From: an uncultured virus (IMG/VR IMGVR_UViG_3300025131_007349)
Taxonomy: Duplodnaviria > Heunggongvirae > Uroviricota > Caudoviricetes
IMG/VR virus record: IMGVR_UViG_3300025131_007349
DNA length: 20,000 nucleotides
Direction: 5' to 3' (one strand)
The number at the start of each line of letters is the position of its first letter. The stretch's first letter is position 1. This document shows positions 1,678-16,389 of this stretch, in pieces. The notes under the pieces are model-generated. The model did not search any database, was not told where the DNA came from, and saw nothing but the letters and a program-made list of their open reading frames with translations. Made by a program: the position numbers and the translations under genes.

Positions 1678-1690
1678 TCGTTATGATAGG

Positions 1691-1697
1691 TATTTAT
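1691..1697 (+). promoter_or_regulatory. TATTTAT intergenic motif, putative phage late promoter element
   Basis: Starts 23 nt upstream of ATG 1714; the same heptamer recurs before the genes at 7758, 10232 and 13216. Confidence 0.55.
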
Positions 1698-1713
1698 TAC
1701 TAAATGATAAATT

Positions 1714-4700
1714 ATGGCGTATCACAAATATATAGCGTGTTTTAGTAATGTTCCTTTTACAATACCTACGCCTTACGATTGTAATATTGGTAAATTAACT
1801 GGTGGTATACCAGGAAATACTACTGCAAATAATCAAAATTTTGTTACCCATTATTATAATCAATCTGGTGGTTTTGTATTAGTGCCAGGAACTTTTATTA
1901 GGTTATATGACGCATTTTACCCAAACACCTATACTTGTTATGAATATCTAGGTACAAGTCTTACACCGGAAGTACTTTATGTTGAATTTCTTGGTGCCCA
2001 TTCTTTACAAAATTCTGGTTATCTTGTTGAACCATATGGTGATTGTAGCACATGTGAGATTGACCCATCCATTTTCGCTTACAACCATTCTTGGCGTTAT
2101 TGTGATAATTCAATCGCTTTTAATCCAGTACCAGTAGTACCTATAATAGGTTCATGTTTTTTACCAAATACTGAGACAAATATTCAGATAGCTCAAAACC
2201 AATTAACTGCTGCTCTAGGGCCTATAAGTATTGGGGACGTAGTACAATTATCTGATGGGACATGTATGTACTATGAAGGGAATCAACTCAGACCAACCAG
2301 TTATGATATTGATGCAAGTAATAATCCAGGTAGTGGAAATTGGCATGCAGGATACGCTCCTGGGAGTTGTGGAAATGCTTTTGGAACACCACCAACAAGA
2401 GGATTAATTGGTAGTATTGGTGATTGTCAACAGTGCCCTGCAGTTATTACTACAACTACCTTAACTACTATAGCCCCTATAACCACCACAACAACAACAT
2501 GTTATAATTGTTGTACCACCACAACTACTAGTGGACCTTGTCAAACATGTGGTATAGAATCTTGTTGCGACCCATCAATACAATATCTCGCTACTGGTAA
2601 TTTATTAATTTTACTGAATATATTGCAATGTAATTCTACTTACGCCTTATTTTTACCACAATTATTCGTTGGTGGTAATGTAATATATGATGAATGTTGG
2701 AAACCACTTTGTAACCCCCCACAAAATCTACAGATAGCTACTACCACCGCAACATATGCATATTTAACTTCGAATGGTTATATAAATGCATTGGGTTGTG
2801 CAGGGTTAAGTTCGACACTACCAATTCCTTGTTGCCCAGTTACTACCACAACAACTTATTATCCAGCTACGACCACAACAACTTATTCCCCAACGACTAC
2901 AACTACAACCTATACCCCAGTTTCAACAACAACTACTGTATGGTACGAGTGTATAGCATCATCCCTAGTAACTATAGGAAATGGCTCAACTTGTGACAAT
3001 AAAATTAAGTTACCATATGTTCATGGATATGCAGGAGGTATTGGAAGTGGAAACTTTATAGCTGATGAAATAATAGCGGGTAATATACCTGCCACTGCTA
3101 ATTTTAGTGATTATTATGTGGAGGGTGTTAACCCTAATTCAAATTATTGCATCAACGGCAATAGTTACACAATGTATGTAACCGCGTGGCCTCAATATCT
3201 TGGGCCTCATACACCACAACCTTTTGATTTATGTTGTTGGTTAGCCGTCCCACCTCTTTCTCCACCTCTTAATGTTATAACACATGTTATGGGTATAATT
3301 ACTACTGGTGTGATGTGTTGGCCTTATAATAATTTATATACAAGTGGTGCGGGTGCTACTCCGACAATATATCCTACTTGGGCAGCATTTATAGATTATC
3401 TAAATCAAACTAATACCATTAATTCGCTCCCAGCAAGCTATACCTATACAATGCCAAGAGCTACAGTAGTTGGAGATATGTGCACATATTCCATTCCATT
3501 TAACACCGGGCCAAACCCAACTTGTAATGATGTTTTTGATTATGCTCAGTCATATTGTGAGTGTTCATCACTACCATGTTATTGTGTGCCATGTTATACT
3601 CCTGGTACATCACCTTGCATATATAATAATTTTACTGCGTGTGATACAGCGGCAAACCCACCTGGTGGCGGGCCATGTTGTGAACCAGCCTCAACAACAA
3701 CTTCAACAACCCCACCAACAACCACAACTACCACAACATTAGCTATAGGCTTAGAATTGTGTTGCCCAACATATGACCAATACATAGTACCTAGTGGGAA
3801 TTTTCTATATACCCTAATACAAGGATTAACTATTAATTCTGCTCATCTTTTTTCAATAACTTTACCTAATGGTAATGATGTGGAGGCGTGTGTTAAAGTA
3901 ATCAATAATCCAAACCCTTCAAATGTAATAACTAATGGTATGTTACTAGCATCACCAAGTACTGATATGGATTGTTATAGTTGGAATAACGATTTAGATA
4001 TAAATAATGGTTATGGTTATACGGCTTTTGAAGATGGATGTTGTACTCTTGAGGATTGGCATGAATGTATTACACCAGCACCACTAATTCCTGGTATAAG
4101 TGCAACAAATGGATGTGAGGTGGGGGACACTTATGTTATACCACCACTTGTTAATTTAATTAATAATTTGTTTGAGAACCATATCGCTTTCATTGATTAT
4201 GTGGTTAGTACTTTTGGTAACGCTATGACTTTAAGTGATTACTTCTATATTAATCCTACGTCTTATTACTACGTATATTCGTGTTATAATTATAGTGGTC
4301 TATATGGTGGAACTGGACCTGGGACTGGTGGAGTCTATATGACTGTCGACAGTATTATACATGCCCCAGGGAATACTATCTACATATTCGTTACCCCATA
4401 CCCTACAACATGGCAAGAACTTATAGATGCATTAAATGTTATAAATGCAGCAAATTCTTGGGTACAAGATTTTTCATATAGTGAAAATTGGGCTCAGACC
4501 TTAACAAGAATTATAAATAACGTCCCAGGGGATACATTATTGGTAAATTCTCTAGATTGTCATTGTTTTAATCCTTGCTATTGCCAACCATGTACCCCAC
4601 CTGCACCAAACTGTATTTACAGTACTTATGCTTTATGTGATGTAGCAGCTAATGCGATACCATGTTGTGACCCCACAACCACCACTACAACAGTATATTG

Positions 4701-7700
4701 TGATAGATTAGGTATAGAAGATTGCTGTACCCACATTGTATATTTGGTTGCACCTACCACCCCTCTATATGTTATAATATCTAACCCTATATATCTGAAC
4801 ATGGTGTTAGCTCTAGAAATAGTACTTCCTAATGGACAACTCCTTATTTCTTGTTTTGAGGTTATAGATACGGCTTGCCCTCCAGACCCTGTGGTTACTG
4901 GAGGATGGACAACACCTATATTACCACATCTACCCACATGTACACAATGTTTGGCTATGATTGCTGCCCAGCTCCAGATTGATTGTGTAACAACAACTAC
5001 AACACAATGGTGGGAATGTGTTCGGGGCCATGTACCAGTTCCTGGGGTAGACGCAATATACTGTGATTCTAGTCACACTTATTTTCAACCAGCAAGTATC
5101 TCAACAGCAAATGGATGGGACATAAATAGGCAGATTTTTATAAATAACGTGGCTAGTACATTTGGGCAAACAGCACTGTTTTCAAATTACTTCTACATCA
5201 ATCCCATTGTAGGCCCAACGACACCAAACAATGTTTGTGTAAATACTGACCCAAACTTATTTAATGGTGTGGGGGAATATCAGACGGTAGTTGGTTTTGT
5301 TGGAATGGGCACAAACACATATTATGTATTAACAGGACCAGTAACAACTAATGCTAATTGGCAAATGTTAATAGATGCATTAAATGCTATAAATGCAGCA
5401 AATGGATGGGCACAAAATTTTCTTTATACGGACTCTTTTGGCGACATCCAGTACAAAATACTTCAACATCTAATCGTGCTTCCCGGAAACCCAATGGAGG
5501 CTATTTTGCTTGTATCAGCGTATTGTATGTGTACCGTTACGTGTATTTGTCAAGTATGTAGTTCAGGGCCTAACTGTATCTATACTAATGAACCAGATTG
5601 TTTACTATCGGCTAACGCAACACCATGTTGTATAACAACAACATATGCTCCACTAACAACAACTACAACTACTAGTAATTTAGTTGGTCTTAAATTATGT
5701 TGTGAACCTTATACTCAATATGAAGTAATTTATAATAGTTCACTTTATAATCTTATAGACTATAGTCTTCCACCATTTACTAGAGCGTTTGTAATGACAA
5801 TAACATTACCTAATGGGACAGACCTTACAGCTTGTATGCAGATGGATATGAATATACCTTTAGCTTCCCCTCAAGTACAAGCGGGTCAGTTTGAATGGCT
5901 TTTTAGTCCTACTTACTATTATTCTAATTGTTTAGAGCTAGATTTAAACGCCCCAATGAATAGTGGTTATGGTTTTCAACAATTTTTGTATGGTTGTTGC
6001 CAACCTACTACGACTACAACTACATCAGCACCATTAGGAGTAGAAGAATGTTGTTCACCTTTTACTCAGTATGTAGCTACAGGCCCGCTATTATCATATT
6101 TCTCTACTTTCAGTGTAGGTGAAGCATTTTATGGTGCTCTAAGTGGCCCATCAACAGCCACCCCTTATATTTGTTTTAAAATTATAACTAATCCTGCGGG
6201 TCTTATAGTAAATTCAGCAGTAGGATATGGTCCAAAAGATAGTTGTACAGATATAGATACGTATATTATAAATGCAGGATTTGATGCTTGTTGCCCAACT
6301 ACGACAACAACAACCTACCCTCCAACTACTACCACAACCACAGTCCTATGTGATTCATGCGGTGTACTATTTGTAGATGATTCAAATCCACCAAACGTTT
6401 ACAATTATAACCATACGGCAAATCAGGTTAATTTATTATTTACAGCGACACAAAATCTAGGATATAGTGCAGATATAGCAAGGTACGGCAATCTAATATG
6501 GGTGTACTATGGTGTAAAAATTCAAGAATATGTTATAGACCCTGTTACTTGTATTGTTAACTGGGTAAGAGAGATTACACTTCCAGCACCAATAGGTAAT
6601 GGTTTAGCGGCTATAACTTCTACTGATTTAATTGGTGGTAGTGATTGGAATATTAGTTGGGGGTATATTAATAGTATAGATATAACTACTAACACAGCTG
6701 TACTATCTGGTTCTATTACTTTAGGAGCTGGAGAATATGTCGCGGGTGATTTATTATACTTAGCTGGGACTAATACATTAATAGTCGCTTTAAGTACAAA
6801 TACCGGAGCTAAATTAGCTTATTATGATTTGGTTAGTGGAGCACTAATAGCGAATATAGGTGGAAGTTTAACTTGGGGATTATATTGTTATAACCAAAAC
6901 ATTTATGGTGTTACTAATACTAAAGACATTTACCAAATATATGTAACTTCTAGTTCAATAAGCGCTGGTTCACCACTTCAGACCCTACCTAACCCACCAT
7001 CATATGTTTGGGGCGCAGCTTCAGACCCAGACTGTTGTATACAACAAGTCACTACCACAACCACGACTAATGTAGTCTCACTAGGGGTTGAATTATGTTG
7101 TGTTCCATATACACAATATGTAGCAGGAGGTTCTTTATTAACGTATATAGCAACGTTAAATATTGGAGATGCTTTTGCTGGTAATTTTAATATTGGTAAT
7201 ACGGATAATATTAAATGTATGAAAGTTGTATCTAATCCAGTAGGAACATTAATAAATCAATTTATTCTCATTTGTAATCCTCATCCGATGACTTGTGACG
7301 CGTTAAATACTCACTTAATTAATTATATTCCACCTGGTCACGGCCATGTAGAGTTAGAACATGGATGTTGTCCATCAATTACAACTACAACAACAGAATA
7401 TGTACTAACTAACAGGTGGATTAGAGCGTGTTGTCCAGAACAATTAGGAGGTAGTTACTATATAGAATTTGCTGCACTACCAGGAAGTAATCTAGAGGGG
7501 ATATTAAACAGTACAGCTTTAGGTGTAGCAATAGAATTAACGGTAACACCACAAGGTGGGATGCAAAGACCATCACAATGCTATAGAGTAACAGACGTAA
7601 ATACATCACCGTACAATCTAGCTGATGGATTCTCAATGTTACAACAAAGTTATAATAATTGTGTTGATTGTACAAACGCACTTCCGGTGATTCCACATAC

Positions 7701-7713
7701 TTGTGCACTTTGA
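1714..7713 (+). CDS. Giant 1999-aa modular Cys/Thr-rich protein (mucin-like; Cys modules, three larger repeated domains, probable beta-propeller)
   Basis: Uninterrupted ORF ATG 1714 to TGA 7711-7713. Seven GxExCC-type modules (about 2551, 3748, 4711, 5686, 6037, 7084, and the divergent WIRACC at 7417), three WxEC...CxCxxC...CIY...PCC domains, many poly-Thr linkers. No obvious signal peptide or transmembrane helix. Confidence 0.9.
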   Translation: MAYHKYIACFSNVPFTIPTPYDCNIGKLTGGIPGNTTANNQNFVTHYYNQSGGFVLVPGTFIRLYDAFYPNTYTCYEYLGTSLTPEVLYVEFLGAHSLQNSGYLVEPYGDCSTCEIDPSIFAYNHSWRYCDNSIAFNPVPVVPIIGSCFLPNTETNIQIAQNQLTAALGPISIGDVVQLSDGTCMYYEGNQLRPTSYDIDASNNPGSGNWHAGYAPGSCGNAFGTPPTRGLIGSIGDCQQCPAVITTTTLTTIAPITTTTTTCYNCCTTTTTSGPCQTCGIESCCDPSIQYLATGNLLILLNILQCNSTYALFLPQLFVGGNVIYDECWKPLCNPPQNLQIATTTATYAYLTSNGYINALGCAGLSSTLPIPCCPVTTTTTYYPATTTTTYSPTTTTTTYTPVSTTTTVWYECIASSLVTIGNGSTCDNKIKLPYVHGYAGGIGSGNFIADEIIAGNIPATANFSDYYVEGVNPNSNYCINGNSYTMYVTAWPQYLGPHTPQPFDLCCWLAVPPLSPPLNVITHVMGIITTGVMCWPYNNLYTSGAGATPTIYPTWAAFIDYLNQTNTINSLPASYTYTMPRATVVGDMCTYSIPFNTGPNPTCNDVFDYAQSYCECSSLPCYCVPCYTPGTSPCIYNNFTACDTAANPPGGGPCCEPASTTTSTTPPTTTTTTTLAIGLELCCPTYDQYIVPSGNFLYTLIQGLTINSAHLFSITLPNGNDVEACVKVINNPNPSNVITNGMLLASPSTDMDCYSWNNDLDINNGYGYTAFEDGCCTLEDWHECITPAPLIPGISATNGCEVGDTYVIPPLVNLINNLFENHIAFIDYVVSTFGNAMTLSDYFYINPTSYYYVYSCYNYSGLYGGTGPGTGGVYMTVDSIIHAPGNTIYIFVTPYPTTWQELIDALNVINAANSWVQDFSYSENWAQTLTRIINNVPGDTLLVNSLDCHCFNPCYCQPCTPPAPNCIYSTYALCDVAANAIPCCDPTTTTTTVYCDRLGIEDCCTHIVYLVAPTTPLYVIISNPIYLNMVLALEIVLPNGQLLISCFEVIDTACPPDPVVTGGWTTPILPHLPTCTQCLAMIAAQLQIDCVTTTTTQWWECVRGHVPVPGVDAIYCDSSHTYFQPASISTANGWDINRQIFINNVASTFGQTALFSNYFYINPIVGPTTPNNVCVNTDPNLFNGVGEYQTVVGFVGMGTNTYYVLTGPVTTNANWQMLIDALNAINAANGWAQNFLYTDSFGDIQYKILQHLIVLPGNPMEAILLVSAYCMCTVTCICQVCSSGPNCIYTNEPDCLLSANATPCCITTTYAPLTTTTTTSNLVGLKLCCEPYTQYEVIYNSSLYNLIDYSLPPFTRAFVMTITLPNGTDLTACMQMDMNIPLASPQVQAGQFEWLFSPTYYYSNCLELDLNAPMNSGYGFQQFLYGCCQPTTTTTTSAPLGVEECCSPFTQYVATGPLLSYFSTFSVGEAFYGALSGPSTATPYICFKIITNPAGLIVNSAVGYGPKDSCTDIDTYIINAGFDACCPTTTTTTYPPTTTTTTVLCDSCGVLFVDDSNPPNVYNYNHTANQVNLLFTATQNLGYSADIARYGNLIWVYYGVKIQEYVIDPVTCIVNWVREITLPAPIGNGLAAITSTDLIGGSDWNISWGYINSIDITTNTAVLSGSITLGAGEYVAGDLLYLAGTNTLIVALSTNTGAKLAYYDLVSGALIANIGGSLTWGLYCYNQNIYGVTNTKDIYQIYVTSSSISAGSPLQTLPNPPSYVWGAASDPDCCIQQVTTTTTTNVVSLGVELCCVPYTQYVAGGSLLTYIATLNIGDAFAGNFNIGNTDNIKCMKVVSNPVGTLINQFILICNPHPMTCDALNTHLINYIPPGHGHVELEHGCCPSITTTTTEYVLTNRWIRACCPEQLGGSYYIEFAALPGSNLEGILNSTALGVAIELTVTPQGGMQRPSQCYRVTDVNTSPYNLADGFSMLQQSYNNCVDCTNALPVIPHTCAL
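2941..5631 (+). repeat. Three intragenic copies of a ~205-245 aa domain (2941-3681, 4057-4668, 5008-5631)
   Basis: Each starts WxEC, contains WxxxIDxLN and ends CxCxxC..CIY....C...AN..PCC. DNA 4423-4455 and 5371-5403 match at 32 of 33 nt. Confidence 0.85.
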
Positions 7714-7723
7714 CCGCTGTAAC

Positions 7724-7730
7724 TATTTAT
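7724..7730 (+). promoter_or_regulatory. TATTTAT intergenic motif, putative late promoter element
   Basis: Starts 34 nt upstream of ATG 7758. Confidence 0.55.
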
Positions 7731-7757
7731 GAATAACGAATAAAATAATATAAAGAT

Positions 7758-10199
7758 ATGGCTTGGTTTTGTCCTACAGAATTAGATTTAGTAAATCCCA
7801 TCATGACACCTTATCCGTGTTGTGTACAAGGGCCAGCACCACTCAACCATCTAGTTTTTGGTACACAACAGGCTTGTCATGATAACACATCTTGTTGTAA
7901 TAATGCCAATCAACCTGGAACAGGTAATTTAGATGTATGTTGCGGAGGTATAGACCAAGGTGACCCCTGTATCTATACTGCTTGGTTATCACTGACCCAA
8001 ACACAAAGAGACGGTATATGTCAATATTGTATGGCGAGTGACCCCCTTAATAACCCTTGTCTTTCTGAAGTTTCTTTATACTGCAGGTGTTGTGATGGAT
8101 GCAACCCAACAACTTCTACTACAACTCAAGAGATTGTAAGAGGGGTAAGAAGGTGCCCACAATTTGGTCCACAATTAGAATTTAGGGCAGACGCAAATCC
8201 TTTATTTACAATAGTTTGGTCATATCCTATTGGTACTGTATTAGCACTTGAAATTATTTATATAACTTTACAAGCTATATTCACTTATAGAGCTTGTTGG
8301 GAAATTATAGAGTTAGTAAACCCATATTATTCTTGTGATGCGGCAAATGGAACATTATTAAATCCTACACCAGGTATAGACTGTTCTAAATGTGTGGTTC
8401 CACCAGGCCCAGAAATCTGTACAACCACCACCACATCTGAACCACCACCTGCCCCATATTGGTGTATTAAAAAATGTTGTGATGATTCCTTACACAAAAT
8501 AGACGCTACTTTTCCATGGGATTGGTCTGGAACTCTTGGTGCATACGTTCCAGGAACTGCATTTTTATCTCAATCTTTTAATAATTTAAATGGTACTGGA
8601 TTACAAGAGTGTTACTCTCTCCCCGACCCACCAGTATTTGGGTGTGGTAACCTCCCTACACTTGTATTAGCTCCACCAATAGTGGTTTTCCTACAAACTA
8701 TACCACCCCAACCTAGCTTATGTGATGATTGTTTATGGATGTACGAATATGGCCAAATTGGTGATGTATACCAATGGTTTCCACCAACTTTACCACCACC
8801 TACAGGACAAGCAGTAGATACTGGGGTAGATGTTAACTTATGTGACCCAAGTGGTGCCACCACAACAACTACACTAACTCCTGGTACAACTACCACAACA
8901 ACAGTATGTATATGGGGTTGCACGGACCCACTAGATTGTAATTATGACCCAACTGCTACTTGTGATGATGGTTCTTGTATGTCGCTTGTTTATGGCTGTA
9001 TGGATAGTGGTAATTGTATAGGGACTAGTTGTCCAGGACCTGGTGGTACTTGCCAAACTCCTAGTACTTACTATGTGTCACCTTATCCTGGATGTCAAGC
9101 TCTTAATTATTATCCTGGTGCGAACTTTATGGACGCTAATAACCCGTGTTATGGTTATTGTAATTGTTTAGACCCAAGTGGTACAAATTATAATGATACT
9201 GGTGAAATCGGTTGGGTTCCACCAGCTAACGCCGCCGTATGGATAAATGGGTTGTATATTGACTGTGCAGGTGTAGTACAAATGATAGGGCTAGTTTGGA
9301 ATGGTAATGTAGGAGACACTTCTTGTTGTGGCCCTATAGTAACGACAACAACTACAGTATGTATATGGGGTTGCACAGACCCAACACAAGTAAATTTTGA
9401 CCCATTAGCTACTTGTAATGATGGAAGTTGTATCCCAATTATTTATGGATGCATGGATGATGGTTGCTGTACTACCGGTATAGGTCCAGACCCACTTGTT
9501 GGTGACCCCTGTGCTGGTGGAGCTACAGGGTTATATCATTTGTGTCCACAAGGTATTATAGGAGGTCCTTCATATAATTCACCATTACCTCCTCCTGGAG
9601 CACTTAATTATTATCCTGGTGCTAATATAAACTCTCAGTGTCTTTATCCTCCTCTAGCAATTACATTTTTCGAAGTGGGACTACCTTATCCTGCGCCTTG
9701 TGCAAATTATCCAAACTCATCTCCTGGGCAATGTGGAGCAACATATAATATTAATATTAATACAGGTACTTCAGCAGATATCCCTCAAGGGGAAATTAAG
9801 TTTACTTTTGAAGCACATACTACAAATCCAGGTGTTTATTATGATGCTCCAACACCTTCCACTTATACTCATAATACAGTAACCACCTCTTTAGATTTTG
9901 ATTGTCAAAGTTATGTATATTGCACAGGGGCAGCCTATTCAGGAGCTTTTACGTATATAGGTGGTTTAGGAGCACTAACTAATGTTGAAGGTTCTGTACC
10001 AGTTAAAGTAATTATAGAATTAACGATGGCGGCCAACGGAGGCATATTGCTAGGAGAAGCTGTACTACAAGATGGGGCTACATCAGCAAATATCAGTATT
10101 GGTTATACTAATAATTTATCAGTTGTTGCCGGAGGTTTTTTCACTCAGACTTGTAATCCATCCGCTTCATCTCCTGGAGGTGTAGGGGGTTGTGTATAA
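7758..10199 (+). CDS. Cys/Pro/Thr-rich protein with GCTD/GCMD-type repeats (putative structural protein)
   Basis: 813-aa ORF. Contains GCTDPLDCNYDPTATCDDGSC and GCTDPTQVNFDPLATCNDGSC, two interrupted GCMD...ALNYYPGAN copies, poly-Thr linkers and a beta-rich C-terminal domain. Confidence 0.85.
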   Translation: MAWFCPTELDLVNPIMTPYPCCVQGPAPLNHLVFGTQQACHDNTSCCNNANQPGTGNLDVCCGGIDQGDPCIYTAWLSLTQTQRDGICQYCMASDPLNNPCLSEVSLYCRCCDGCNPTTSTTTQEIVRGVRRCPQFGPQLEFRADANPLFTIVWSYPIGTVLALEIIYITLQAIFTYRACWEIIELVNPYYSCDAANGTLLNPTPGIDCSKCVVPPGPEICTTTTTSEPPPAPYWCIKKCCDDSLHKIDATFPWDWSGTLGAYVPGTAFLSQSFNNLNGTGLQECYSLPDPPVFGCGNLPTLVLAPPIVVFLQTIPPQPSLCDDCLWMYEYGQIGDVYQWFPPTLPPPTGQAVDTGVDVNLCDPSGATTTTTLTPGTTTTTTVCIWGCTDPLDCNYDPTATCDDGSCMSLVYGCMDSGNCIGTSCPGPGGTCQTPSTYYVSPYPGCQALNYYPGANFMDANNPCYGYCNCLDPSGTNYNDTGEIGWVPPANAAVWINGLYIDCAGVVQMIGLVWNGNVGDTSCCGPIVTTTTTVCIWGCTDPTQVNFDPLATCNDGSCIPIIYGCMDDGCCTTGIGPDPLVGDPCAGGATGLYHLCPQGIIGGPSYNSPLPPPGALNYYPGANINSQCLYPPLAITFFEVGLPYPAPCANYPNSSPGQCGATYNININTGTSADIPQGEIKFTFEAHTTNPGVYYDAPTPSTYTHNTVTTSLDFDCQSYVYCTGAAYSGAFTYIGGLGALTNVEGSVPVKVIIELTMAANGGILLGEAVLQDGATSANISIGYTNNLSVVAGGFFTQTCNPSASSPGGVGGCV
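8901..9630 (+). repeat. Intragenic duplication of a TTT-VCIWGCTDP...GSC...YGCMD...ALNYYPGAN unit
   Basis: 8901-8930 and 9354-9383 match at 29 of 30 nt (acagtatgtatatggggttgcac[g/a]gaccca); cttaattattatcctggtgc occurs in both copies. Confidence 0.85.
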
Positions 10200-10216
10200 A
10201 ATATAATTAATTAAAG

Positions 10217-10223
10217 TATTTAT
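10217..10223 (+). promoter_or_regulatory. TATTTAT intergenic motif, putative late promoter element
   Basis: Starts 15 nt upstream of ATG 10232. Confidence 0.55.
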
Positions 10224-10231
10224 AAAAAGAT

Positions 10232-12160
10232 ATGGCATGTAATTTAACGGGAATAACAATTAATATAGGTGGTGGTATTTCACCCTATAATATAAGTCTT
10301 TGTGACCAAGGATGTGAAACTGGTTGCAATAATGTAGCTTCTACGAATTATGATTGTGTTTATTTTACCGCATGTTGTGGAACTTATGGTTTATTAATAG
10401 AAGATGTTTCTGGATGTACAAGTTGTTCTGATTTAATAGTAGATACTTGTTTTACTACTACGACAACTACAACCGTAGCTCCAGCTACCACCACAACGAC
10501 AATATCTCCAGCTACTACAACAACATCAACTACGTCAGCTCCTACAGCTGCTACATTGTTTAGACCATGTGATGGCCAAAGTGGATGCACAGGCCATCCT
10601 AATATTATAACACCAAGTGTTGTAGGGGGTGGAGCAGAAATTACTATGTCAATGAACATACCGTCCTATACTAGAGTAAAAGGAGCTACTATTTCTACCG
10701 ATGATATATATTCCGGTTATACTGATTCTGATGGAATCGAACATATGTCATACCATGATTATATAGTAAACAAATATGCAGATACTATCACCTCTACAGG
10801 AGTAACTTCTATACATGTAGGACGAAAAATCACCAATAATATAGATACAGGTGTTTATTGTATCACTATAAGTGTTGTAGAAAAGAAAGATTTAAGTGAA
10901 CTAAGTGAGAGTGAATTATTACCAACAGAACTAGACGAGATACCAACAGATATAGTAGCGACAGGGGAATATATATTACACTCTTCATGTTTATATGATA
11001 AAGCTTTAATACTAACTGAAAGTACACAATGTCTCCCTAGTTTCCCTCCAGGTACTTTTGGGTGTGGTCCTTTGAATGGGACAGTTATTAGTTACCCTGC
11101 CTGTTCAGACCATGGAAATCCTTATTATTCACCAGCTACTAACCAGAGAGCTATTCCTGGTGGCGTTAGTATTGGTACAACCAATTCACTTGCTGCATTT
11201 GGTGGTAGAGTAAATGGGACATTAGGATGGTTAGCTTATGATAATAGTGACGACAGAATAGTTGCTATAACCAATAATCACGTTATAGGATATAATTTTG
11301 TTGCGGCAGGATTAAACGCAGACCCAATTAATTATCCTGGTTTAGATTGTGGTTCTGCTGCCGGTGCAACTTCAAATGGTGGAGCACAACCACCAAACTG
11401 GACAACAGGTTACGTAACCCAACAACCAAGCTATCCAGATAACGGATATTCAAGTGCTGGGGTACAAATGGGTTCAGTAAAAAGATTCCATCCTATATGT
11501 CACGATTATACACAAAATAAGGTTGATGGTGCGGTTATAGAATTAACCGAAGAACCTACAACCACTCAACTAGGTCTTGCATGGGGACCTTTCCAACACG
11601 CTACAACAGCAGAAATAAATGCATGTGTAGGAAGTTATGTTTATAAAGTAGGAAGAACTACTGGTAATATGTTAAGTGTAAGTTATCCAGATGTTGTAAT
11701 AACTACAGTTAACGCAGCTAATATAGCATTAGACGGGACAGGTCTCTTTAAGTACAACAACCAAATAATATATCAATCAGTAGGCGATGGTGACCCATCC
11801 GCGGGTGCTCCAGGTGATTCTGGTTCTTCTCTTTTATGTTGTGTAGGTGGAGCATTAAAAGTAGTTGGACTTAATTTTGCAGGTAATTATCCAACAGGAA
11901 TATGTTGTGGATTTAGTGCAGGTGATATAAATACTATATGGCCTAATGGGTTTATTGCTATTGCCAATCGTATAGACGAAGTAGAATCTAAATTAAATAT
12001 TTCTTCATGGGACGGTTCTATAGTAGTATCTTCTACAGCATCTAACTATATAAAAGTTAATGATAAATGTTATTATAACGCAGGAACTACTACCAGACCA
12101 GTACAACACACTATAGATGCTTCTTATACAGATTGTTCATCTTGTAATTCTTCTATCTAA
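10232..12160 (+). CDS. Trypsin-like (S1/PA clan, Nal1-type) serine protease fused to a SprB-like repeat, poly-Thr linker and Cys module
   Basis: Motifs GTLG, ITNNHVI (His350), VDGAVI (Asp432), YKVGRTTG, PGDSGS (Ser530) and VVGLNFAG. The upstream VGRK...CITISVVEKK...ELLP.ELDEIPTDIV segment resembles the N-terminal domain of Nal1-like proteases. The N-terminus GGGISPY...GTYGLLIEDVSGC resembles a SprB repeat. Confidence 0.85.
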   Translation: MACNLTGITINIGGGISPYNISLCDQGCETGCNNVASTNYDCVYFTACCGTYGLLIEDVSGCTSCSDLIVDTCFTTTTTTTVAPATTTTTISPATTTTSTTSAPTAATLFRPCDGQSGCTGHPNIITPSVVGGGAEITMSMNIPSYTRVKGATISTDDIYSGYTDSDGIEHMSYHDYIVNKYADTITSTGVTSIHVGRKITNNIDTGVYCITISVVEKKDLSELSESELLPTELDEIPTDIVATGEYILHSSCLYDKALILTESTQCLPSFPPGTFGCGPLNGTVISYPACSDHGNPYYSPATNQRAIPGGVSIGTTNSLAAFGGRVNGTLGWLAYDNSDDRIVAITNNHVIGYNFVAAGLNADPINYPGLDCGSAAGATSNGGAQPPNWTTGYVTQQPSYPDNGYSSAGVQMGSVKRFHPICHDYTQNKVDGAVIELTEEPTTTQLGLAWGPFQHATTAEINACVGSYVYKVGRTTGNMLSVSYPDVVITTVNAANIALDGTGLFKYNNQIIYQSVGDGDPSAGAPGDSGSSLLCCVGGALKVVGLNFAGNYPTGICCGFSAGDINTIWPNGFIAIANRIDEVESKLNISSWDGSIVVSSTASNYIKVNDKCYYNAGTTTRPVQHTIDASYTDCSSCNSSI

Positions 12161-12214: not shown

Positions 12215-13186
12215 ATGATTTTTATCTGTGCACAACCTGACGTACCATATTTCCATTGGCAAATAAGAATGCTATTCTTTAATTTTGAGAAATTTGGAAT
12301 TATTAATAAATGTAGAGCAATATTCGGTTTAATGAATGGAGCTCAAGAACCAAGTGAAGGACTAAAAAAGTTACTAAGAGATTATCCAGATAATATTTAT
12401 TTTTATAAAGATACTAGAATAAATAGGTCATATATTCCAAGCATTAAACCACACTTAGTAAAACATTACTTAAAAGAACATCCACAAGACGGTAAATGTA
12501 TATTTTTAACTGATTCAGATATTTTGTTTAGACAATTACCAGATTTCGGGTCCATGTTATTTGATGACATATGCTATGTTTCAGAATGTCCTGGGTATAT
12601 AGATTATAACTACATAAAAGGTTGTTGTGATAGGTATAAAACACAACATCCACAGTTAGGTGATATCGAATTATTAGAAGATATGGCAGATAAGGTTGGT
12701 ATATCAGTAGACGTTATCAAACAAAATAATGATAAATCTGGAGGAGCACAATACCTTATAAAGGACACAGATTATCATTTTTGGCATAAAGTAGACCTTG
12801 ATTGTAATAGAATATACGATACAACAAGAAAGTTTGGTGACAAATACCCTATACCAGCACATATACAATTTTGGACCGCAGAAATGTGGGCCATATTATG
12901 GAATATGTGGTATTTTGGAAAAGAAACAGCTTTACACTCTGAATTAGCTTTTAGTTGGGCCACTGACCCAGTCTCTAGATACGAAGAAAGGAACATATTT
13001 CATTTAGCTGGTATATTAGACGAAATGAAAGATGAAAAGTTCTATAAGGGTGAGTTCATCAATAAATGTCCATTCATGGAATACAAAAACAACCCAACAA
13101 AATTCCAAAATTACTCACCAGAATTCGGTGCAATAAAATACGTAGAAGAAATAAAACGATTCATTGAGTCGAAACGACCTTACTGA
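12215..13186 (+). CDS. Putative GT-A fold glycosyltransferase, similar to plant peptidyl-Ser galactosyl- / Hyp arabinosyl-transferases (GT96/GT95-like)
   Basis: 323 aa with normal globular composition. DxD motif after a hydrophobic strand (IFLTDSDILFR, 12512-12520). Ordered motifs YFHWQ, YIPSIKP..V.HYL, DKSGG and WTAEMW parallel the YFDWQ, YPAINKP..V..WL, DKVGG and WISEMY motifs I recall from SGT1. Confidence 0.75.
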   Translation: MIFICAQPDVPYFHWQIRMLFFNFEKFGIINKCRAIFGLMNGAQEPSEGLKKLLRDYPDNIYFYKDTRINRSYIPSIKPHLVKHYLKEHPQDGKCIFLTDSDILFRQLPDFGSMLFDDICYVSECPGYIDYNYIKGCCDRYKTQHPQLGDIELLEDMADKVGISVDVIKQNNDKSGGAQYLIKDTDYHFWHKVDLDCNRIYDTTRKFGDKYPIPAHIQFWTAEMWAILWNMWYFGKETALHSELAFSWATDPVSRYEERNIFHLAGILDEMKDEKFYKGEFINKCPFMEYKNNPTKFQNYSPEFGAIKYVEEIKRFIESKRPY

Positions 13187-13215: not shown

Positions 13216-16200
13216 ATGGCCTATACCGGTAACGTACATGTTTCACTATATGCTATTCCAGATTACTGTAATCCGGGGGCTATATGGGCATCAGACCAAG
13301 AAAACCCTCTCCAACCAGGAGGGTCACTAAACTATATTTACAACAATGCAACTAATGCATTTGGACTCCAATCGCCATTTTTTGATGCAGGATATTATTT
13401 TATTGGTGATACTGTAAAAATGTCCGCTGATACAGGCGGAGATGGTGGGATATATACTAGTGCTGCAAATTGGAACACACTTCGATTCGGTCAACCAGCA
13501 CATTCTAAGTTTGACCATGCAATGCGTACTATGCATTGGTTAAAGGCCTGTGAATATACTGATGGTTCTGCATTTACTCATACATTATCTGGAGTTACTA
13601 GTGGTGGTACTAAACCTTATATCTATAAATGGGAAAACCAAGCTCATCCATATACTGGGAATATTTTTAATTTATATACTCTAGCTAGTGCTTATACTGC
13701 TAGTGATTCATGGGGAGGATATAGTGGTCAGACCTATACATGGGCTGGAACAGGAGATACCGTATATGGATTTTTTGATAATACATATGCACAAATTTAT
13801 ACCGGACCGTCAAGAGTTAAGTTAACTGTTACCGACTTTACTGGTGGTACAGCTAGTACATTTATGTCCTTAAGTTCAGGATGTACAACAATGCCATGGT
13901 CAGCGGCAACGACAACCACTACTACCGCACCTCCAGTTACAGGGTATTGTTATGAACTGAGAAGTTGTAATCCGTATTATGATACTGGATACACATTCTC
14001 CACAATGTTCACAGCATCCACACTATCAGCAGGAAGTCATTATGAAATCTTAGCACCACCAAACCTTAATGGTATAGAACATTGTTGGCAAATTGTTAGT
14101 GCTTGTGGTTATACTGTAGGAACAAATATAGGTGCTAAAGTAATGGCTGGACCATTTAGTGGATGTTGTGACCCTACAGCTACTGGAGCTTGTAGAACTA
14201 TGTGGTGCCCACCACCACCAGAAACAACTACAACAACTGTTGAACCAGGAACTACAACAACAAGTACAACCACGATTGTGCCTGCAACAACAACCACAAC
14301 CACTTGTAACTTAAGATATGAAGTAGAACCTTGTGTAAGCACAGGAGGAACAATAACAATAATGTTAACAGGCTCATCATGCTTAGATATAACTTTAAGT
14401 GCGGGAAGCTATTATAGGCTAGAGACTGGATGGCCTGAGTGTGTAACTGATTGTTATCATATAATTACAGGATTAACATATGGTGTTTCAGGGGTTCAAA
14501 CTGATATAATTGCTGGTGTATTTAGTTCTTGTACACATTGTGACCAAGGATGGATTGGGGAGACTACGACAACCACTACTATGTGGCCACCATGGACAAC
14601 TACTACCACTTCTCCAGTTACAGAAACTACTACTTGTGCTTATTATGAAGCAGATGCAACAGTACATGTAGTTACACAAAGTGCGAGGACAGCTAATGAT
14701 GTAATGAACATATGGTCTATATTACCTAGTGGGTTAACTCATAGTCCATATGATTATGATTGTCGTTTAAAATTAAAACCAATTACTGGGTATAGTAGTT
14801 ATAATATTGATTATAGTATAATTAGTGCAACTGGTAGTTGTGAAGGTTATTATAATGAATTAGCTGGAGGATTTTACCAAGGATTTTATAAATTACAAGG
14901 ATACCCTTATGAGGTTTTACCTACTAGGGTAGAATGTGGTTGGACTGTAGAGACAATAATTAGACCTAGATGTAATACTATATGTAATGGTTATACTTTG
15001 AATGATTTATTTCCAGATAATAAAGGGATATTCTTTTATATGGGGACAAGAGCTGAGAATAAATTCAGGATACCCTATTCGGGAGAAAATTGTATAGAAA
15101 CTTGTGAACCATCTTGTTCAGGAAATTCTATAACTTTACAGACTGCTGGGTGTGACACTTATATGGATAATTGTGGAAATGTACATGAAGAATGTACTTC
15201 AGCTACAACATACCCATATTTTGTAGATTGTTGTAGTAATAATTTTGCTTTAATGTTAAGTGGAAATTGTGAAACAGGGTATAGATTAGGTTATAAAGCA
15301 TTATATTTTTCTGGTGGTTGTGTTGTGACAGGAACTACCGATGAAACGGTACACTACGATAGATGTGGCCACCCATATATGGTAAGTTCTAATAATCCTG
15401 ATTGTGGTACAGCTTTTACTTATATGACCGCATGTACAGTAATTAATCGTTTTAGTGATGATATAATATGCGACTTTACAGGACAAACAGACGCGCCCTG
15501 GCTTTATATAAGTGCTGTTTTCGAAAGAGATTATTGTTGGGATTGTTGTGACTTAGAAAATCAAGGAGGAGTCAATGACTTAATACACGAAAGAATACCT
15601 GGAGTAGACTCGGTGTTTGGATATAATGATGCAGAACTCCCAACATATCTAAACTTCACAAAAAAATGGGTACAAGAAAAGAAATATAGAATGGGCACAT
15701 TAACAATTTATGTTAATGGTAGACCAGTTTTTATAGATAAGAATTTCGAGGAAATCATCCCACGACAACTTAATACAGCAAATCAATTACAAGTAGGTGT
15801 GCCATTTAATATTAGTTGGGGTGGTGGTTCACAAGGATTATTAGAATCATTTAGATTTGATGGTTGTGAATGTGATAGTGATATAATTACAGATTCACAA
15901 GTAGATTGTATAACAGAAAACTTTGCGGGGACATTTATGGGAGCTATATCTCAGTTTAGGTATTATTTAAAACCTTTAGGTGCTGATGAGGTACAACATA
16001 ATTTCTTAGTGGATAAGGATAGATATGGATTAATAGATTGTAAATGTGAAGATACAGCATGTAATAAAGCAAGAACAATATACTATATCGAAGGAGATTC
16101 TGTCGATGTAATGCTAAACTATCCTGTACCAATAACCGTCCTAGATTTTGGTGGATTTGATACTTATATAGACGTTACAAAGTACGAAGGAATTAAATTT

Positions 16201-16389
16201 AAATCCATTTTAGTTGATAATATAAGCTCTTTTACAATTAAAAGATACCCAGAATCAGTAATTACAGATGTTGTAGTCGAAACTTTACCGTTCTGTGTCG
16301 GGCCAAACGATATAGTTCAAATAATTATTAATAGAGTAGACACCAATAAAAAAGCGAGTGCTACATTAATAGGTAACCTATATAAGTAA
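13216..16389 (+). CDS. Large structural protein with Cys modules, poly-Thr linkers and a C-terminal LamG/concanavalin A-like domain
   Basis: 1057 aa. LamG-like strand pattern WTVETIIRP ... WLYISAVF ... LTIYVNG ... FMGAISQFRYYLKPL. SprB/PKD-like SGGTKPYIYKW...KLTVTD near the N-terminus. Confidence 0.75.
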   Translation: MAYTGNVHVSLYAIPDYCNPGAIWASDQENPLQPGGSLNYIYNNATNAFGLQSPFFDAGYYFIGDTVKMSADTGGDGGIYTSAANWNTLRFGQPAHSKFDHAMRTMHWLKACEYTDGSAFTHTLSGVTSGGTKPYIYKWENQAHPYTGNIFNLYTLASAYTASDSWGGYSGQTYTWAGTGDTVYGFFDNTYAQIYTGPSRVKLTVTDFTGGTASTFMSLSSGCTTMPWSAATTTTTTAPPVTGYCYELRSCNPYYDTGYTFSTMFTASTLSAGSHYEILAPPNLNGIEHCWQIVSACGYTVGTNIGAKVMAGPFSGCCDPTATGACRTMWCPPPPETTTTTVEPGTTTTSTTTIVPATTTTTTCNLRYEVEPCVSTGGTITIMLTGSSCLDITLSAGSYYRLETGWPECVTDCYHIITGLTYGVSGVQTDIIAGVFSSCTHCDQGWIGETTTTTTMWPPWTTTTTSPVTETTTCAYYEADATVHVVTQSARTANDVMNIWSILPSGLTHSPYDYDCRLKLKPITGYSSYNIDYSIISATGSCEGYYNELAGGFYQGFYKLQGYPYEVLPTRVECGWTVETIIRPRCNTICNGYTLNDLFPDNKGIFFYMGTRAENKFRIPYSGENCIETCEPSCSGNSITLQTAGCDTYMDNCGNVHEECTSATTYPYFVDCCSNNFALMLSGNCETGYRLGYKALYFSGGCVVTGTTDETVHYDRCGHPYMVSSNNPDCGTAFTYMTACTVINRFSDDIICDFTGQTDAPWLYISAVFERDYCWDCCDLENQGGVNDLIHERIPGVDSVFGYNDAELPTYLNFTKKWVQEKKYRMGTLTIYVNGRPVFIDKNFEEIIPRQLNTANQLQVGVPFNISWGGGSQGLLESFRFDGCECDSDIITDSQVDCITENFAGTFMGAISQFRYYLKPLGADEVQHNFLVDKDRYGLIDCKCEDTACNKARTIYYIEGDSVDVMLNYPVPITVLDFGGFDTYIDVTKYEGIKFKSILVDNISSFTIKRYPESVITDVVVETLPFCVGPNDIVQIIINRVDTNKKASATLIGNLYK

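What the first reader, a model, noticed from the sequence alone, without database searches (positions are those of the whole stretch)
12215..13186. Glycosyltransferase with the motif order of plant SGT1 (GT96) / HPAT (GT95) in a phage-like context
Seen: PYFHWQIRML, SYIPSIKPHLVKHYL, IFLTDSDILFR, GYI, DKSGG and FWTAEMWA in this order, followed by a C-terminal IFH, with no signal anchor. From memory, plant extensin-modifying enzymes have YFDWQ / YPAINKP / ILDADMIIR / GYL / DKVGG / WISEMYG (SGT1) and WQCRIMY / WVLEMYAY (HPAT). These families are characterised in plants and green algae. A soluble viral relative would bear on their origin and could be a useful cytoplasmic O-glycosylation tool.
Basis: partly seen in the sequence, partly recalled or inferred. 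Interest (0 to 1): 0.82.

Follow-up and report, generated by a model that had tools for sequence, protein, structure and literature searches.

The report
Phage sugar-transferase among poly-threonine proteins
A giant uncultured phage encodes a soluble sugar-adding enzyme, distantly related to the plant enzymes that glycosylate cell-wall extensins, in the middle of a block of huge proteins studded with threonine runs, so the phage probably sugar-coats these proteins, though no sugar has been measured.

Summary
The ORF (12215-13186, +, 323 aa) and all seven motifs are real and in the stated order. The protein folds as a GT-A glycosyltransferase (pLDDT 96.7) with an invariant DxD (D100, D102) and His263. 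It has no membrane anchor and belongs to an unannotated phage family, phrog_4417.

The Pfam HPAT model does not hit the query. A profile of the family aligns over its full length with 13 metagenomic or bacterial HPAT-like proteins (11 scanned, 10 over the Pfam HPAT cut-off): hhalign 95.2%, E 2.7e-8, against 6.7% and 0.8% for two other GT-A controls. Nine residues are conserved in both families. No plant sequence was compared directly.

The likely function is O-glycosylation of poly-Thr tracts. The five large ORFs flanking the gene carry 39 Thr runs. In a 297-kb relative, all 57 Thr6-coding runs lie in the 27 kb around the gene. In one siphovirus tail-protein family, 17 of 17 loci with a poly-Thr tail have this gene and 56 of 56 without the tail lack it.

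Fused bacterial homologues sit in lanthipeptide-like clusters. No glycan has been measured. This scan reported the same pairing before, on DNA of at least 55 other genomes.

The parts
12215..13186 (+). Gene for a 323-aa soluble GT-A fold glycosyltransferase of the family phrog_4417, a remote HPAT-like relative
   Evidence: ORF. phrog_4417 at E 4.6e-65. AlphaFold2 pLDDT 96.7. GT-A matches in PDB. hhalign 95.2% to HPAT-positive proteins.
12512..12520 (+). Codons for D100-S101-D102, the DxD motif, inferred to bind the metal and the nucleotide-sugar
   Evidence: D100 and D102 are invariant in 52 of 52 sequences. They align with D96 and D98 of the HPAT-like set. They follow beta strand 95-98 in the model. 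Their role is inferred from what is known of GT-A enzymes.
13001..13003 (+). Codon for His263, inferred to be the third metal ligand
   Evidence: Invariant in A1. Aligned with the invariant His232 of the HPAT-like set.
1..1677 (+). 3' part of a gene for a Cys-rich protein (558 aa seen) with 9 Thr runs; a presumed acceptor
   Evidence: ORF. 9 tracts, 16.8% Thr, 7.3% Cys.
1714..7713 (+). Gene for a 1999-aa Cys-rich protein with 16 Thr runs; a presumed acceptor
   Evidence: ORF. 16 tracts, 5.5% Cys. No Pfam, PHROG or PDB sequence match.
7758..10199 (+). Gene for an 813-aa Cys-rich protein with 5 Thr runs; a presumed acceptor
   Evidence: ORF. 5 tracts, 7.6% Cys. No family match.
10232..12160 (+). 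Gene for a 642-aa protein with an N-terminal Cys-rich part, 3 Thr runs (residues 75-102) and a protease-like C-terminal domain; a presumed acceptor
   Evidence: ORF and sequence. phrog_20754 'protease' at E 1.9e-17 on residues 305-558. Tracts.
13216..16389 (+). Gene for a 1057-aa protein with 6 Thr runs (residues 232-466) and a possible LamG-like lectin domain at the C-terminus; a presumed acceptor
   Evidence: ORF. Tracts. The LamG/ConA-like reading is a lead from the protein atlas only (score 0.91).

Best explanation
The gene encodes a soluble, metal-dependent GT-A glycosyltransferase. It is made in the infected cell and transfers a sugar from a nucleotide-sugar onto the hydroxyl groups of threonine runs. 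In this phage the runs are linkers in five giant, cysteine-rich, fibre-like or adhesin-like proteins encoded on both sides of the gene. The result would be mucin-like glycosylated stalks, most probably displayed on the virion.

Shown here:
- the fold, the conserved DxD and His, and the remote kinship to the HPAT family;
- the tight genomic coupling of the enzyme family with Thr runs.

Inferred:
- that the Thr runs are the acceptor;
- that the acceptor proteins are virion parts in this phage;
- that the reaction retains anomeric configuration, because the nearest structures are GT8, GT24 and GT77 enzymes, which I recall to be retaining;
- the donor sugar, which is unknown. A related 297-kb phage encodes its own nucleotide-sugar pathway. 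The small siphoviruses do not, at least within the 6 to 9 kb inspected on either side of the gene, so there a common host UDP-sugar is likely.
For: Enzyme:
- The model has pLDDT 96.7 and pTM 0.93.
- The 50 best Foldseek PDB matches listed are all GT-A glycosyltransferases. The best is UGGT 7zle at E 2.8e-6, and 235 matches have E <= 0.001.
- VIA-align finds glycogenin 3u2t at Z 14.8 (226 residues aligned, rmsd 3.5), LgtC at Z 13.7, UGGT at Z 13.7, the Skp1 galactosyltransferase 6mw8 at Z 13.2 and the PBCV-1 capsid glycosyltransferase 2p6w at Z 11.2.
- D100, D102 and H263 are invariant.
- hhalign to HPAT-positive proteins gives 95.2% and E 2.7e-8. The controls give 6.7% and 0.8%.
- Of 83 longer family representatives scanned, 15 carry a second glycosyltransferase domain: GT2, Glyco_transf_7C, PF11397, O-FucT, or weak GT25 and GT1 hits.

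Coupling to Thr runs:
- In the window, 39 runs lie in the five ORFs flanking the gene. The gene itself and the five ORFs downstream have none.
- In the 297,623-bp relative, 57 of 57 matches to six consecutive ACN codons lie on one strand within 175,304-202,392. That is 9% of the genome and holds the orthologue at 176,685-177,653. The backwards-pattern control gave 2 and 8 matches.
- In one major-tail-protein family fetched without regard to the tail or the enzyme (80 IMG/VR loci, 73 scorable), 17 have a poly-Thr C-terminus and the enzyme gene next door, 56 have neither, and none is discordant (Fisher 5.7e-17). The tail-protein tree needs 10 changes of state. Independent pairs agree in 5 of 5 on well-supported branches and in 10 of 10 on all branches.
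- The link is not mere adjacency. In 17 of 17 enzyme-positive loci another, non-adjacent gene also ends in poly-Thr: a capsid-sized protein of about 400 aa or one of about 105 aa. This is so in 2 of 44 enzyme-negative loci.
- All 4 cultured phages inspected show the pairing: phiFL1A, VPE25, phiCTP1 and Chryseobacterium phage MA9V-3.
- Of 53 single-domain loci in bacterial genomes, 45 have a Thr run within 6 kb.

Support for a peptide or protein acceptor:
- Fused homologues in Bacteroidota lie in lanthipeptide-like clusters.
- HPAT-positive relatives are fused to a PqqD peptide-recognition domain.

Sugar supply: the related phage has four nucleotide-sugar epimerase/dehydratase genes, an aminotransferase and a second weaker match to that family, a methyltransferase and a further glycosyltransferase, 14-23 kb from the Thr-run block.
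Against: - No glycan, mass shift or enzyme activity has been measured for any member of the family. No paper on it was found.
- In this window the Thr runs are internal linkers. In the siphoviruses, where the statistics were done, they are C-terminal tails, so the transfer of the argument is by analogy.
- That the five big proteins are virion parts is not shown. They match no structural family apart from one weak PHROG match on the Thr-run region of the 642-aa ORF. In the relative, a DNA polymerase gene lies between the block and the tail tube and sheath genes.
- The sign test on well-supported branches alone reaches only p = 0.0625 (5 of 5).
- Two enzyme-negative loci, L086 and L143, still have a Thr/Ser-rich tail on a small protein.
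- 8 of 53 single-domain genome loci, some of them short contigs, show no Thr run within 6 kb.
- 24 of 27 fused loci also show none, although most of those are RiPP-like clusters.
- Cysteine-rich proteins made in the cytoplasm are odd and remain unexplained.
Confidence: 0.7

Rival explanations
1. The enzyme glycosylates something other than protein: phage DNA (as protection from restriction) or a host envelope polymer (as serotype conversion or superinfection exclusion). On this view the Thr runs are only flexible linkers that travel with it.
For: Glycosylation of phage DNA and of host surface polymers are the usual roles given to phage glycosyltransferases, as stated in PMC12619734 (passages). 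The fold alone does not name the acceptor. The related phage has a nucleotide-sugar cluster that could serve any acceptor.
Against: The perfect two-way association with Thr tails in a matched tail-protein family (17/0/0/56) would be unexplained. So would the tails on non-adjacent capsid-sized genes (17 of 17 against 2 of 44). The gene sits between the tail tube gene and the tail chaperone genes in siphoviruses, and the protein has no membrane segment. The bacterial homologues are in peptide-modifying clusters, not polysaccharide clusters.
Confidence: 0.1
2. The enzyme does act on the Thr runs, but as a sugar-1-phosphate transferase (phosphoglycosylation, as by Stealth/GlcNAc-1-phosphotransferase enzymes) and not as a simple glycosyltransferase.
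For: GlcNAc-1-phosphotransferase and the CpsY phosphotransferase appear among the structural matches at Z 9.2-9.4. The family profile has a faint sequence match to 7s6n (E 0.81). One family member has a faint Stealth_CR2 hit (E 0.17).
Against: These matches are far weaker than those to true glycosyltransferases (Z 13-15). They fall in the range that the tool calls a common arrangement. The HPAT family, the nearest by profile, is described as arabinosyltransferases (PMC8012813, passages).
Confidence: 0.05
3. The protein is a catalytically inactive or purely structural GT-A-like protein, for example a chaperone or lectin that binds the Thr-rich regions.
For: No activity has been measured. Such a role would explain the co-occurrence equally well.
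Against: The DxD and His are invariant in 52 of 52 diverse sequences and are shared with the HPAT-like set. That is the pattern of a working active site. The frequent fusions are to second glycosyltransferase domains.
Confidence: 0.05

Closest known systems
Pfam PF23452 HPAT family: plant hydroxyproline O-arabinosyltransferases, CAZy GT95. A review calls it related to GT96, the family of the extensin serine galactosyltransferase SGT1 (PMC8012813, passages).
   Same: The two are homologous over their full length by profile-profile comparison (95.2%, E 2.7e-8, 254 columns). The motif order is the same. Nine residues are conserved in both, including the DxD, the W-x-x-[DE]-M motif, the His and the Lys. 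The domain length is similar (about 300 residues; the profile has 307 positions). Both would put sugars on hydroxyl groups of repetitive, extended protein segments: Hyp/Ser runs in extensins, Thr runs here (the latter inferred).
   Different: The query does not reach the Pfam model at all, and the best family member scores 18.2 bits against a cut-off of 23.9. There is no type II membrane anchor and no Golgi setting: the protein is soluble and cytoplasmic. The likely acceptor is Thr, not Hyp or Ser, and the donor is unknown. The comparison used Pfam-positive metagenomic and bacterial proteins, not plant sequences.
Virion glycosylation of mycobacteriophages (Freeman et al. 2023, Cell Host Microbe). 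I know it here only through citing passages in PMC12619734 and PMC13313380. The paper itself is not held.
   Same: Phage-encoded glycosyltransferases are thought to decorate the phage's own particle proteins. The citing passage says the glycans sit at the C-termini of the capsid and tail tube subunits. That is where the poly-Thr tails sit in the siphoviruses that carry this family.
   Different: The enzyme family here is unannotated (phrog_4417, 'unknown function'). Whether it is related to the mycobacteriophage enzymes was not tested. The acceptor here is a plain poly-Thr tag. In this window it is used as many internal linkers in giant proteins, not as one C-terminal tail. Nothing has been measured for this family.
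Retaining GT-A enzymes of CAZy GT8, GT24 and GT77: glycogenin, LgtC, UGGT and the Skp1 alpha-galactosyltransferase AgtA. The family numbers and the retaining mechanism are recalled, not tested here.
   Same: These are the best structural matches: Z 13.2-14.8, 213-239 residues aligned, rmsd 3.5-4.0. They share the DxD plus a C-terminal His. Several act on proteins (glycogenin, UGGT, AgtA).
   Different: There is no sequence-level kinship. Pfam GT8 does not hit the query, and hhalign to seven GT8 members gives 6.7% over 93 columns. Foldseek TM-scores are only 0.38-0.44.
PBCV-1 A64R, the chlorovirus glycosyltransferase involved in glycosylating the major capsid protein (PDB 2p6w)
   Same: It is a virus-encoded, soluble GT-A enzyme that glycosylates the virus's own particle protein in the cytoplasm. 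It is a structural match at Z 11.2 with 188 residues aligned.
   Different: It comes from a eukaryotic virus. No sequence kinship was detected, and no poly-Thr tag is involved as far as the entry title tells.

Membership tests
Pfam PF23452 HPAT (CAZy GT95) | Whole-protein score over the curated Pfam cut-off of 23.9 bits | tested here: not met
   The query has no HPAT hit even at E <= 10, and the orthologue's genome has none either. The best family members score 14.8-18.2 bits. None of 83 longer members is hit at E <= 0.01.
Pfam PF23452 HPAT (CAZy GT95) | Homology to bona fide HPAT-model members over the whole catalytic domain | tested here: met
   hhalign of A1 against A4 gives 95.2%, E 2.7e-8 and 254 columns (A1 10-312 to A4 12-278). 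Of the 13 rows of A4, 11 were scanned and 10 lie over the cut-off at 34.4-117.6 bits; one (L184) scores 22.7 bits. L171 and L173 were not scanned. Controls give 6.7% (GT8) and 0.8%. No plant sequences were used.
Pfam PF23452 HPAT (CAZy GT95) | Shared catalytic and motif residues | tested here: met
   W15, Y73, D100, D102, W190, W220, M224, H263 and K278 are conserved at 90% or more in both alignments at aligned columns. That is 9 of the 25 aligned A1 columns conserved at that level.
Pfam PF23452 HPAT (CAZy GT95) | Type II membrane anchor and Golgi localisation, as described for the plant enzymes (PMC8012813, passages) | tested here: not met
   The protein starts with the first beta strand of the fold and has no N-terminal hydrophobic segment. 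It is a phage protein.
Pfam PF23452 HPAT (CAZy GT95) | Hydroxyproline acceptor and UDP-L-arabinofuranose donor | not testable with these tools
   This needs biochemistry. The genomic association is with Thr runs, not Pro-rich runs.
CAZy GT96 (SGT1, peptidyl-serine alpha-galactosyltransferase) | Sequence or profile match to SGT1 | not tested
   No SGT1 sequence or model was on hand. A search for longer relatives found only 14 fused family members and nothing SGT1-like. A 756-aa metagenomic protein (L184) has an HPAT-like N-terminal domain at 22.7 bits. It is only a lead.
GT-A fold glycosyltransferases with a DxD motif | Rossmann-like GT-A fold | tested here: met
   Model pLDDT 96.7. The Foldseek and VIA-align top matches are all GT-A enzymes.
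GT-A fold glycosyltransferases with a DxD motif | Conserved DxD after the fourth strand, plus a C-terminal His | tested here: met
   D100, D102 and H263 are invariant in 52 of 52 sequences. The DxD follows strand 95-98. Metal binding itself is inferred.
   There is no PF01501 hit. hhalign against seven PF01501 members gives 6.7% over 93 columns. The similarity is structural only, at Z 13.7-14.8.
phrog_4417 (PHROGs, unknown function) | HMM match over the whole protein | tested here: met
   E 4.6e-65, 220.6 bits, residues 1-293 to profile positions 1-274 of 293.
Phage virion O-glycosylation systems (mycobacteriophage type) | A phage glycosyltransferase gene together with acceptor segments on particle proteins | tested here: met
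   In siphovirus relatives, the tails sit on the major tail protein and on capsid-sized proteins only when the gene is present. In this window the acceptors are five neighbouring giant proteins whose place in the virion is not shown.
Phage virion O-glycosylation systems (mycobacteriophage type) | Glycan detected on virion proteins | not testable with these tools
   This needs mass spectrometry or glycoprotein staining.

The most novel reading that the evidence does not exclude
The plant extensin-glycosylating enzymes (GT95 and GT96) are the membrane-anchored eukaryotic branch of an old and much larger superfamily of soluble peptide and protein O-glycosyltransferases in prokaryotes and phages.

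Bacteria use this superfamily to tailor ribosomal peptides, through fusions to PqqD recognition domains and within lanthipeptide clusters. Phages of many lineages use it with a minimal portable acceptor, a run of threonines. They graft the run onto capsid, tail or fibre proteins to build mucin-like sugar coats.

Enzyme plus Thr tag would then be a self-contained two-part system for cytoplasmic O-glycosylation that can be moved to any protein.
Probability: 0.35. Interest if true: 0.88.

Novelty: new variant of a known kind. Interest (0 to 1): 0.77.

Why it matters
If the reading is right, sugar-coating of particles is not a peculiarity of mycobacteriophages. It would be widespread among phages of Bacillota and Bacteroidota and among jumbo phages. 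It would be carried out by an enzyme family that every database lists as 'hypothetical', and a simple sequence tag would predict it.

That would matter for phage therapy, because glycans shield particles from antibodies according to the passage citing Freeman et al.. It would also matter for host-range and adhesion biology.

It would give glycoengineers a soluble enzyme with a very short acceptor tag.

It would also give the plant-restricted families GT95 and GT96 their first prokaryotic and viral relatives, which makes their origin a testable question.

Tried and rejected
- **Direct sequence searches for a named family.** Pfam gave only two spurious sub-threshold hits. PDB sequences gave nothing for the single protein. 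The family profile found only TAL-effector repeats and a faint GNPTAB match.
- **The window's own genome.** None is held. Megablast of the whole window against known phages found nothing.
- **Plant SGT1-like long relatives.** A search for longer proteins found only 14 fused family members. The tool itself calls this weak evidence.
- **A member clade formally inside Pfam HPAT.** I searched with P0205, the most HPAT-like member. None of its 52 relatives carried a precomputed HPAT label, and only 4 of the 48 scanned gave sub-threshold hits.
- **The HPAT model in bacterial genomes.** It was found in 1 of 5 genomes and in 1 of 401 Myxococcota genomes, the same genome both times. So prokaryotic HPAT-positive proteins are rare in reference genomes. 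I took them from metagenomes instead.
- **GT8 controls.** No GT8 gene was found in the first five genomes. They came from 7 of 81 Bacillota genomes.
- **What the five Thr-run proteins are.** Pfam gave nothing, and PHROGs gave a protease-like domain plus two weak matches on the 642-aa ORF and nothing on the others. PDB sequences gave nothing. The atlas gave only a LamG-like lead.
- **Literature.** Seven full-text searches found no paper on this family or on poly-Thr tags in phages. Freeman et al. 2023 is not held.
- **Rows dropped.** L181 was left out of the HPAT alignment because it looks frameshifted. Seven tail-protein loci with under 1200 bp of downstream DNA were left out of the 2x2 table; none of them had a Thr tail. 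Loci with under 5 kb of upstream DNA were left out of the second table.
Full report
**1. The observation.** The window has an ATG-initiated ORF at 12215..13186 on the + strand, 323 aa long. The protein has no N-terminal hydrophobic segment. In the predicted structure it begins with a beta strand at residues 2-8. All ORFs of 80 aa or more that are plausible genes lie on the + strand.

**2. The family.**
- Pfam gives no credible hit for the query, and no PDB sequence matches it.
- PHROGs places it in phrog_4417, 'unknown function' (E 4.6e-65).
- The family is large. There are 1503 relatives in the 90%-clustered collection, all 120 listed being unnamed or 'hypothetical'. There are 794 representatives at 50% clustering.
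- 75 deposited phage genomes carry it, all at under 60% identity. They include phages of Enterococcus, Lactobacillus, Staphylococcus, Lactococcus, Clostridium and Chryseobacterium.
- Orthologues 93% identical lie on two IMG/VR contigs. One is 297,623 bp long and rated 93% complete, which makes it a jumbo phage.
- A 52-sequence alignment (A1) has 13 invariant columns, including D100 and D102 (a DxD motif), H263 and K278.

**3. The fold.**
- With A1 as input, AlphaFold2 gives pLDDT 96.7 and pTM 0.93.
- The 50 best Foldseek matches against the PDB that were listed are all GT-A glycosyltransferases: UGGT, LgtC, B3GNT2 and the blood-group transferases. The best E is 2.8e-6, and TM-scores are only 0.38-0.44.
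- The Foldseek-independent search gives glycogenin at Z 14.8, LgtC at 13.7, UGGT at 13.7, the Skp1 galactosyltransferase at 13.2 and the chlorovirus capsid glycosyltransferase A64R at 11.2.
- Among viral models, only two family members match closely (TM 0.87 and 0.73). The rest are generic GT-A proteins.
- So this is a GT-A enzyme of a family without a solved structure.
- Many longer members are fused to a second glycosyltransferase domain, to a radical SAM/SPASM module or to lectin-like domains (14 fused forms).

**4. The plant link.**
- HPAT (PF23452) is the only glycosyltransferase Pfam family that recurs among members: 3 of 52 at E <= 1, 2 of 72 at E <= 0.05, and 4 of 48 relatives of the best one.
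- These hits are always collinear (residues 6-113 to profile 6-114) and always below the cut-off (at most 18.2 against 23.9 bits). None of 83 longer members is hit.
- The HPAT model rang in one of five bacterial genomes that hold a family member. The protein is 378 aa long (P0333). It scores 34.4 bits on HPAT and has a C-terminal PqqD domain. Its gene lies directly upstream of a family member on the same contig.
- HPAT was found in only 1 of 401 Myxococcota genomes.
- A metagenome scan with P0333 gave 22 loci. Of ten proteins scanned, nine exceed the HPAT cut-off at 39.5-117.6 bits. Three of these cover the whole profile. One 756-aa protein reaches 22.7 bits.
- The profile of A1 against the profile of 13 such proteins (A4) gives hhalign probability 95.2%, E 2.7e-8 and 254 aligned columns, spanning A1 10-312 and A4 12-278 (repeated).
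- Controls run the same way give 6.7% over 93 columns for seven Pfam GT8 members. They give 0.8% for the second glycosyltransferase domain of eight fused members.
- Nine residues are conserved at 90% or more in both families at aligned columns: W15, Y73, D100, D102, W190, W220, M224, H263 and K278.
- With plain HMMs, 12 of 13 A4 members score 11-23.5 bits on the A1 model. The window protein scores 12.1 bits on the A4 model.
- I conclude that the family is a remote homologue of the HPAT family but not a member of it.
- I saw no plant sequence and no GT95 or GT96 structure. One deep-learning study predicts GT-A for GT95 and a novel fold for GT96 (PMC8476585, passages). A review calls the two families related (PMC8012813, passages).

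**5. What it acts on.**
- The window's five large ORFs around the gene carry 9, 16, 5, 3 and 6 Thr runs, 39 in all. They are 4.2-7.6% cysteine. The enzyme gene and the five ORFs downstream have no runs.
- In the 297-kb relative, all 57 matches to six consecutive ACN codons lie on one strand between 175,304 and 202,392. This 27-kb block contains the orthologue. The backwards-pattern control gave 2 and 8 matches. The block includes an ORF of at least 4487 aa with 34 runs.
- The same pairing appears in unrelated cultured phages. The phiFL1A major tail protein ends in a run of over 20 Thr/Ser residues, and the enzyme gene follows it directly. The VPE25 major tail protein and phiCTP1 gp18 and gp11 end in Thr runs. 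Two neighbours of the gene in Chryseobacterium phage MA9V-3 have long Thr/Ser linkers.
- In 84 fetched relative loci plus the window, 52 of 85 have a run of six or more Ser/Thr with at least five Thr in an ORF.

**6. A matched test.**
- I aligned 15 Bacillota major tail proteins with their tails cut off (A2). I then fetched 80 IMG/VR loci that encode relatives.
- 73 loci had at least 1200 bp of DNA downstream. Of these, 17 had a Thr tail and the enzyme gene next door, 56 had neither, and none was discordant (Fisher 5.7e-17). The seven loci left out had no tail.
- On a tree of the tail-less tail proteins both traits need the same 10 changes, and well-supported branches force at least 5. Independent pairs agree in 5 of 5 on starred branches (sign test 0.0625) and in 10 of 10 on all branches.
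- Linkage alone does not explain this. Among loci with at least 5 kb of upstream DNA, 17 of 17 with the gene also have a Thr tail on a non-adjacent gene: a capsid-sized protein of about 400 aa or one of about 105 aa. Only 2 of 44 without the gene do (L086 and L143; Fisher 3e-13).

**7. A second context.** The 80 bacterial-genome loci split in two.
- 53 encode a single-domain enzyme, and 45 of them have a Thr run within 6 kb. For Bacillota the count is 36 of 37.
- 27 encode a fused form with a second domain, 26 of them in Bacteroidota. Only 2 of the 27 have a Thr run. 20 have a LanC-like neighbour by an ad-hoc HMM.
- Pfam on five such loci shows LanB dehydratase, LanC-like cyclase, C39 peptidase-ABC exporter, radical SAM, HlyD and VKOR-thioredoxin genes.
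- Together with the PqqD fusions of the HPAT-positive proteins, this points to peptide and protein hydroxyl groups as the general acceptor of the superfamily. This is an inference.

**8. Sugar supply and setting.**
- The related jumbo phage has four nucleotide-sugar epimerase/dehydratase genes, an aminotransferase and a second weaker match to that family, a methyltransferase and another glycosyltransferase at about 216.7-225.7 kb.
- Its baseplate hub, tail tube and tail sheath genes lie at about 153-161 kb.
- A DNA polymerase gene lies between these and the Thr-run block.
- These genes lie outside the window.
- The five Thr-run proteins match no known structural family. One has a protease-like domain, and one has a possible LamG-like domain (lead only).

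**9. Verdict.**
- The most likely function is O-glycosylation of Thr runs on the phage's own, probably particle-borne, proteins (confidence 0.7).
- The function is untested. I found no paper on it in seven searches.
- The known precedent is mycobacteriophage virion glycosylation, which I saw only in citing passages.
- This scan has reported the same pairing in at least 55 other genomes. I repeated the key association test independently on my own loci.

Noticed in passing
L008, L018, L028, L047, L063 (Bacteroidota chromosomes), enzyme gene at about 6000-7700 in each: Here the family member is a 504-582 aa fusion. In at least two of them (L018, L047) the added part matches Glyco_transf_7C. The gene sits among LanB dehydratase, LanC-like cyclase, C39 peptidase-ABC exporter, radical SAM, HlyD and VKOR-thioredoxin genes. 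This looks like a glycosylated lanthipeptide or other RiPP cluster. By an ad-hoc HMM, 20 of 27 fused loci have a LanC-like neighbour.
   Followed up: partly
L024:2133-3266 (Myxococcales MAG contig) and metagenome loci L166, L169, L170, L172, L174, L176: These are soluble proteins of about 378 aa that pass the Pfam HPAT cut-off and carry a C-terminal PqqD domain, known as a RiPP leader-peptide recognition element. In L024 the gene lies directly upstream of a 630-aa member of the window's family. HPAT-type enzymes outside plants therefore seem to exist as peptide-modifying enzymes.
   Followed up: partly
L184:3977-6244 and L185 (metagenome contigs of 32 and 39 kb): This is a 756-aa protein with an HPAT-like N-terminal domain (22.7 bits, just under the cut-off), a weak ShK-like match (just under its cut-off) and a YFDWQ motif. 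Its origin (alga, giant virus or bacterium) is unknown.
   Followed up: no
G001 (297,623-bp IMG/VR record) about 216,696-225,687 = L197:9043-18034: This is a cluster of four nucleotide-sugar epimerase/dehydratase genes, one aminotransferase plus a weaker second match to that family, a methyltransferase and a glycosyltransferase. It lies 14-23 kb from the Thr-run block. The phage may make its own modified amino or deoxy sugar.
   Followed up: partly
L195:1-13461 (- strand) in G001: An open reading frame of at least 4487 aa with 34 Thr runs and 4.7% cysteine, next to the enzyme block. It is one of the largest phage ORFs I have seen and matches nothing.
   Followed up: no
window 1-12160 and 13216-16389: The Thr-run proteins are unusually rich in cysteine (4.2-7.6%). 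Four of the five ORFs further downstream have 0-3.0%; the fifth is a 96-aa ORF with 4.2%. Many disulfide-type modules in proteins made in a bacterial cytoplasm are unexplained.
   Followed up: no
window 10232-12160, residues 305-558: A protease-like domain (phrog_20754, E 1.9e-17, with a GDSG-type motif in the sequence) sits behind a Cys-rich module and three Thr runs. Its role is unknown.
   Followed up: no
L086 (IMG/VR locus), ORF 6492-6806: This is the one clear exception to the pairing. A 105-aa protein ends in ten threonines, but no enzyme gene lies in the 16.6-kb locus and the tail protein has no tail. Its sister locus L085 has both, so this may be a recent loss, or the gene may lie elsewhere in the genome.
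   Followed up: no
window protein residues about 139-169 (profile positions of A1): The family profile gives repeated weak matches to each repeat of TAL effectors (Hax3, summed E 0.001). The cause is a helix-loop segment that ends in N-x-S-G-G-[AK]-Q. It is probably convergence of a short helix-loop motif, but I did not look into it.
   Followed up: no
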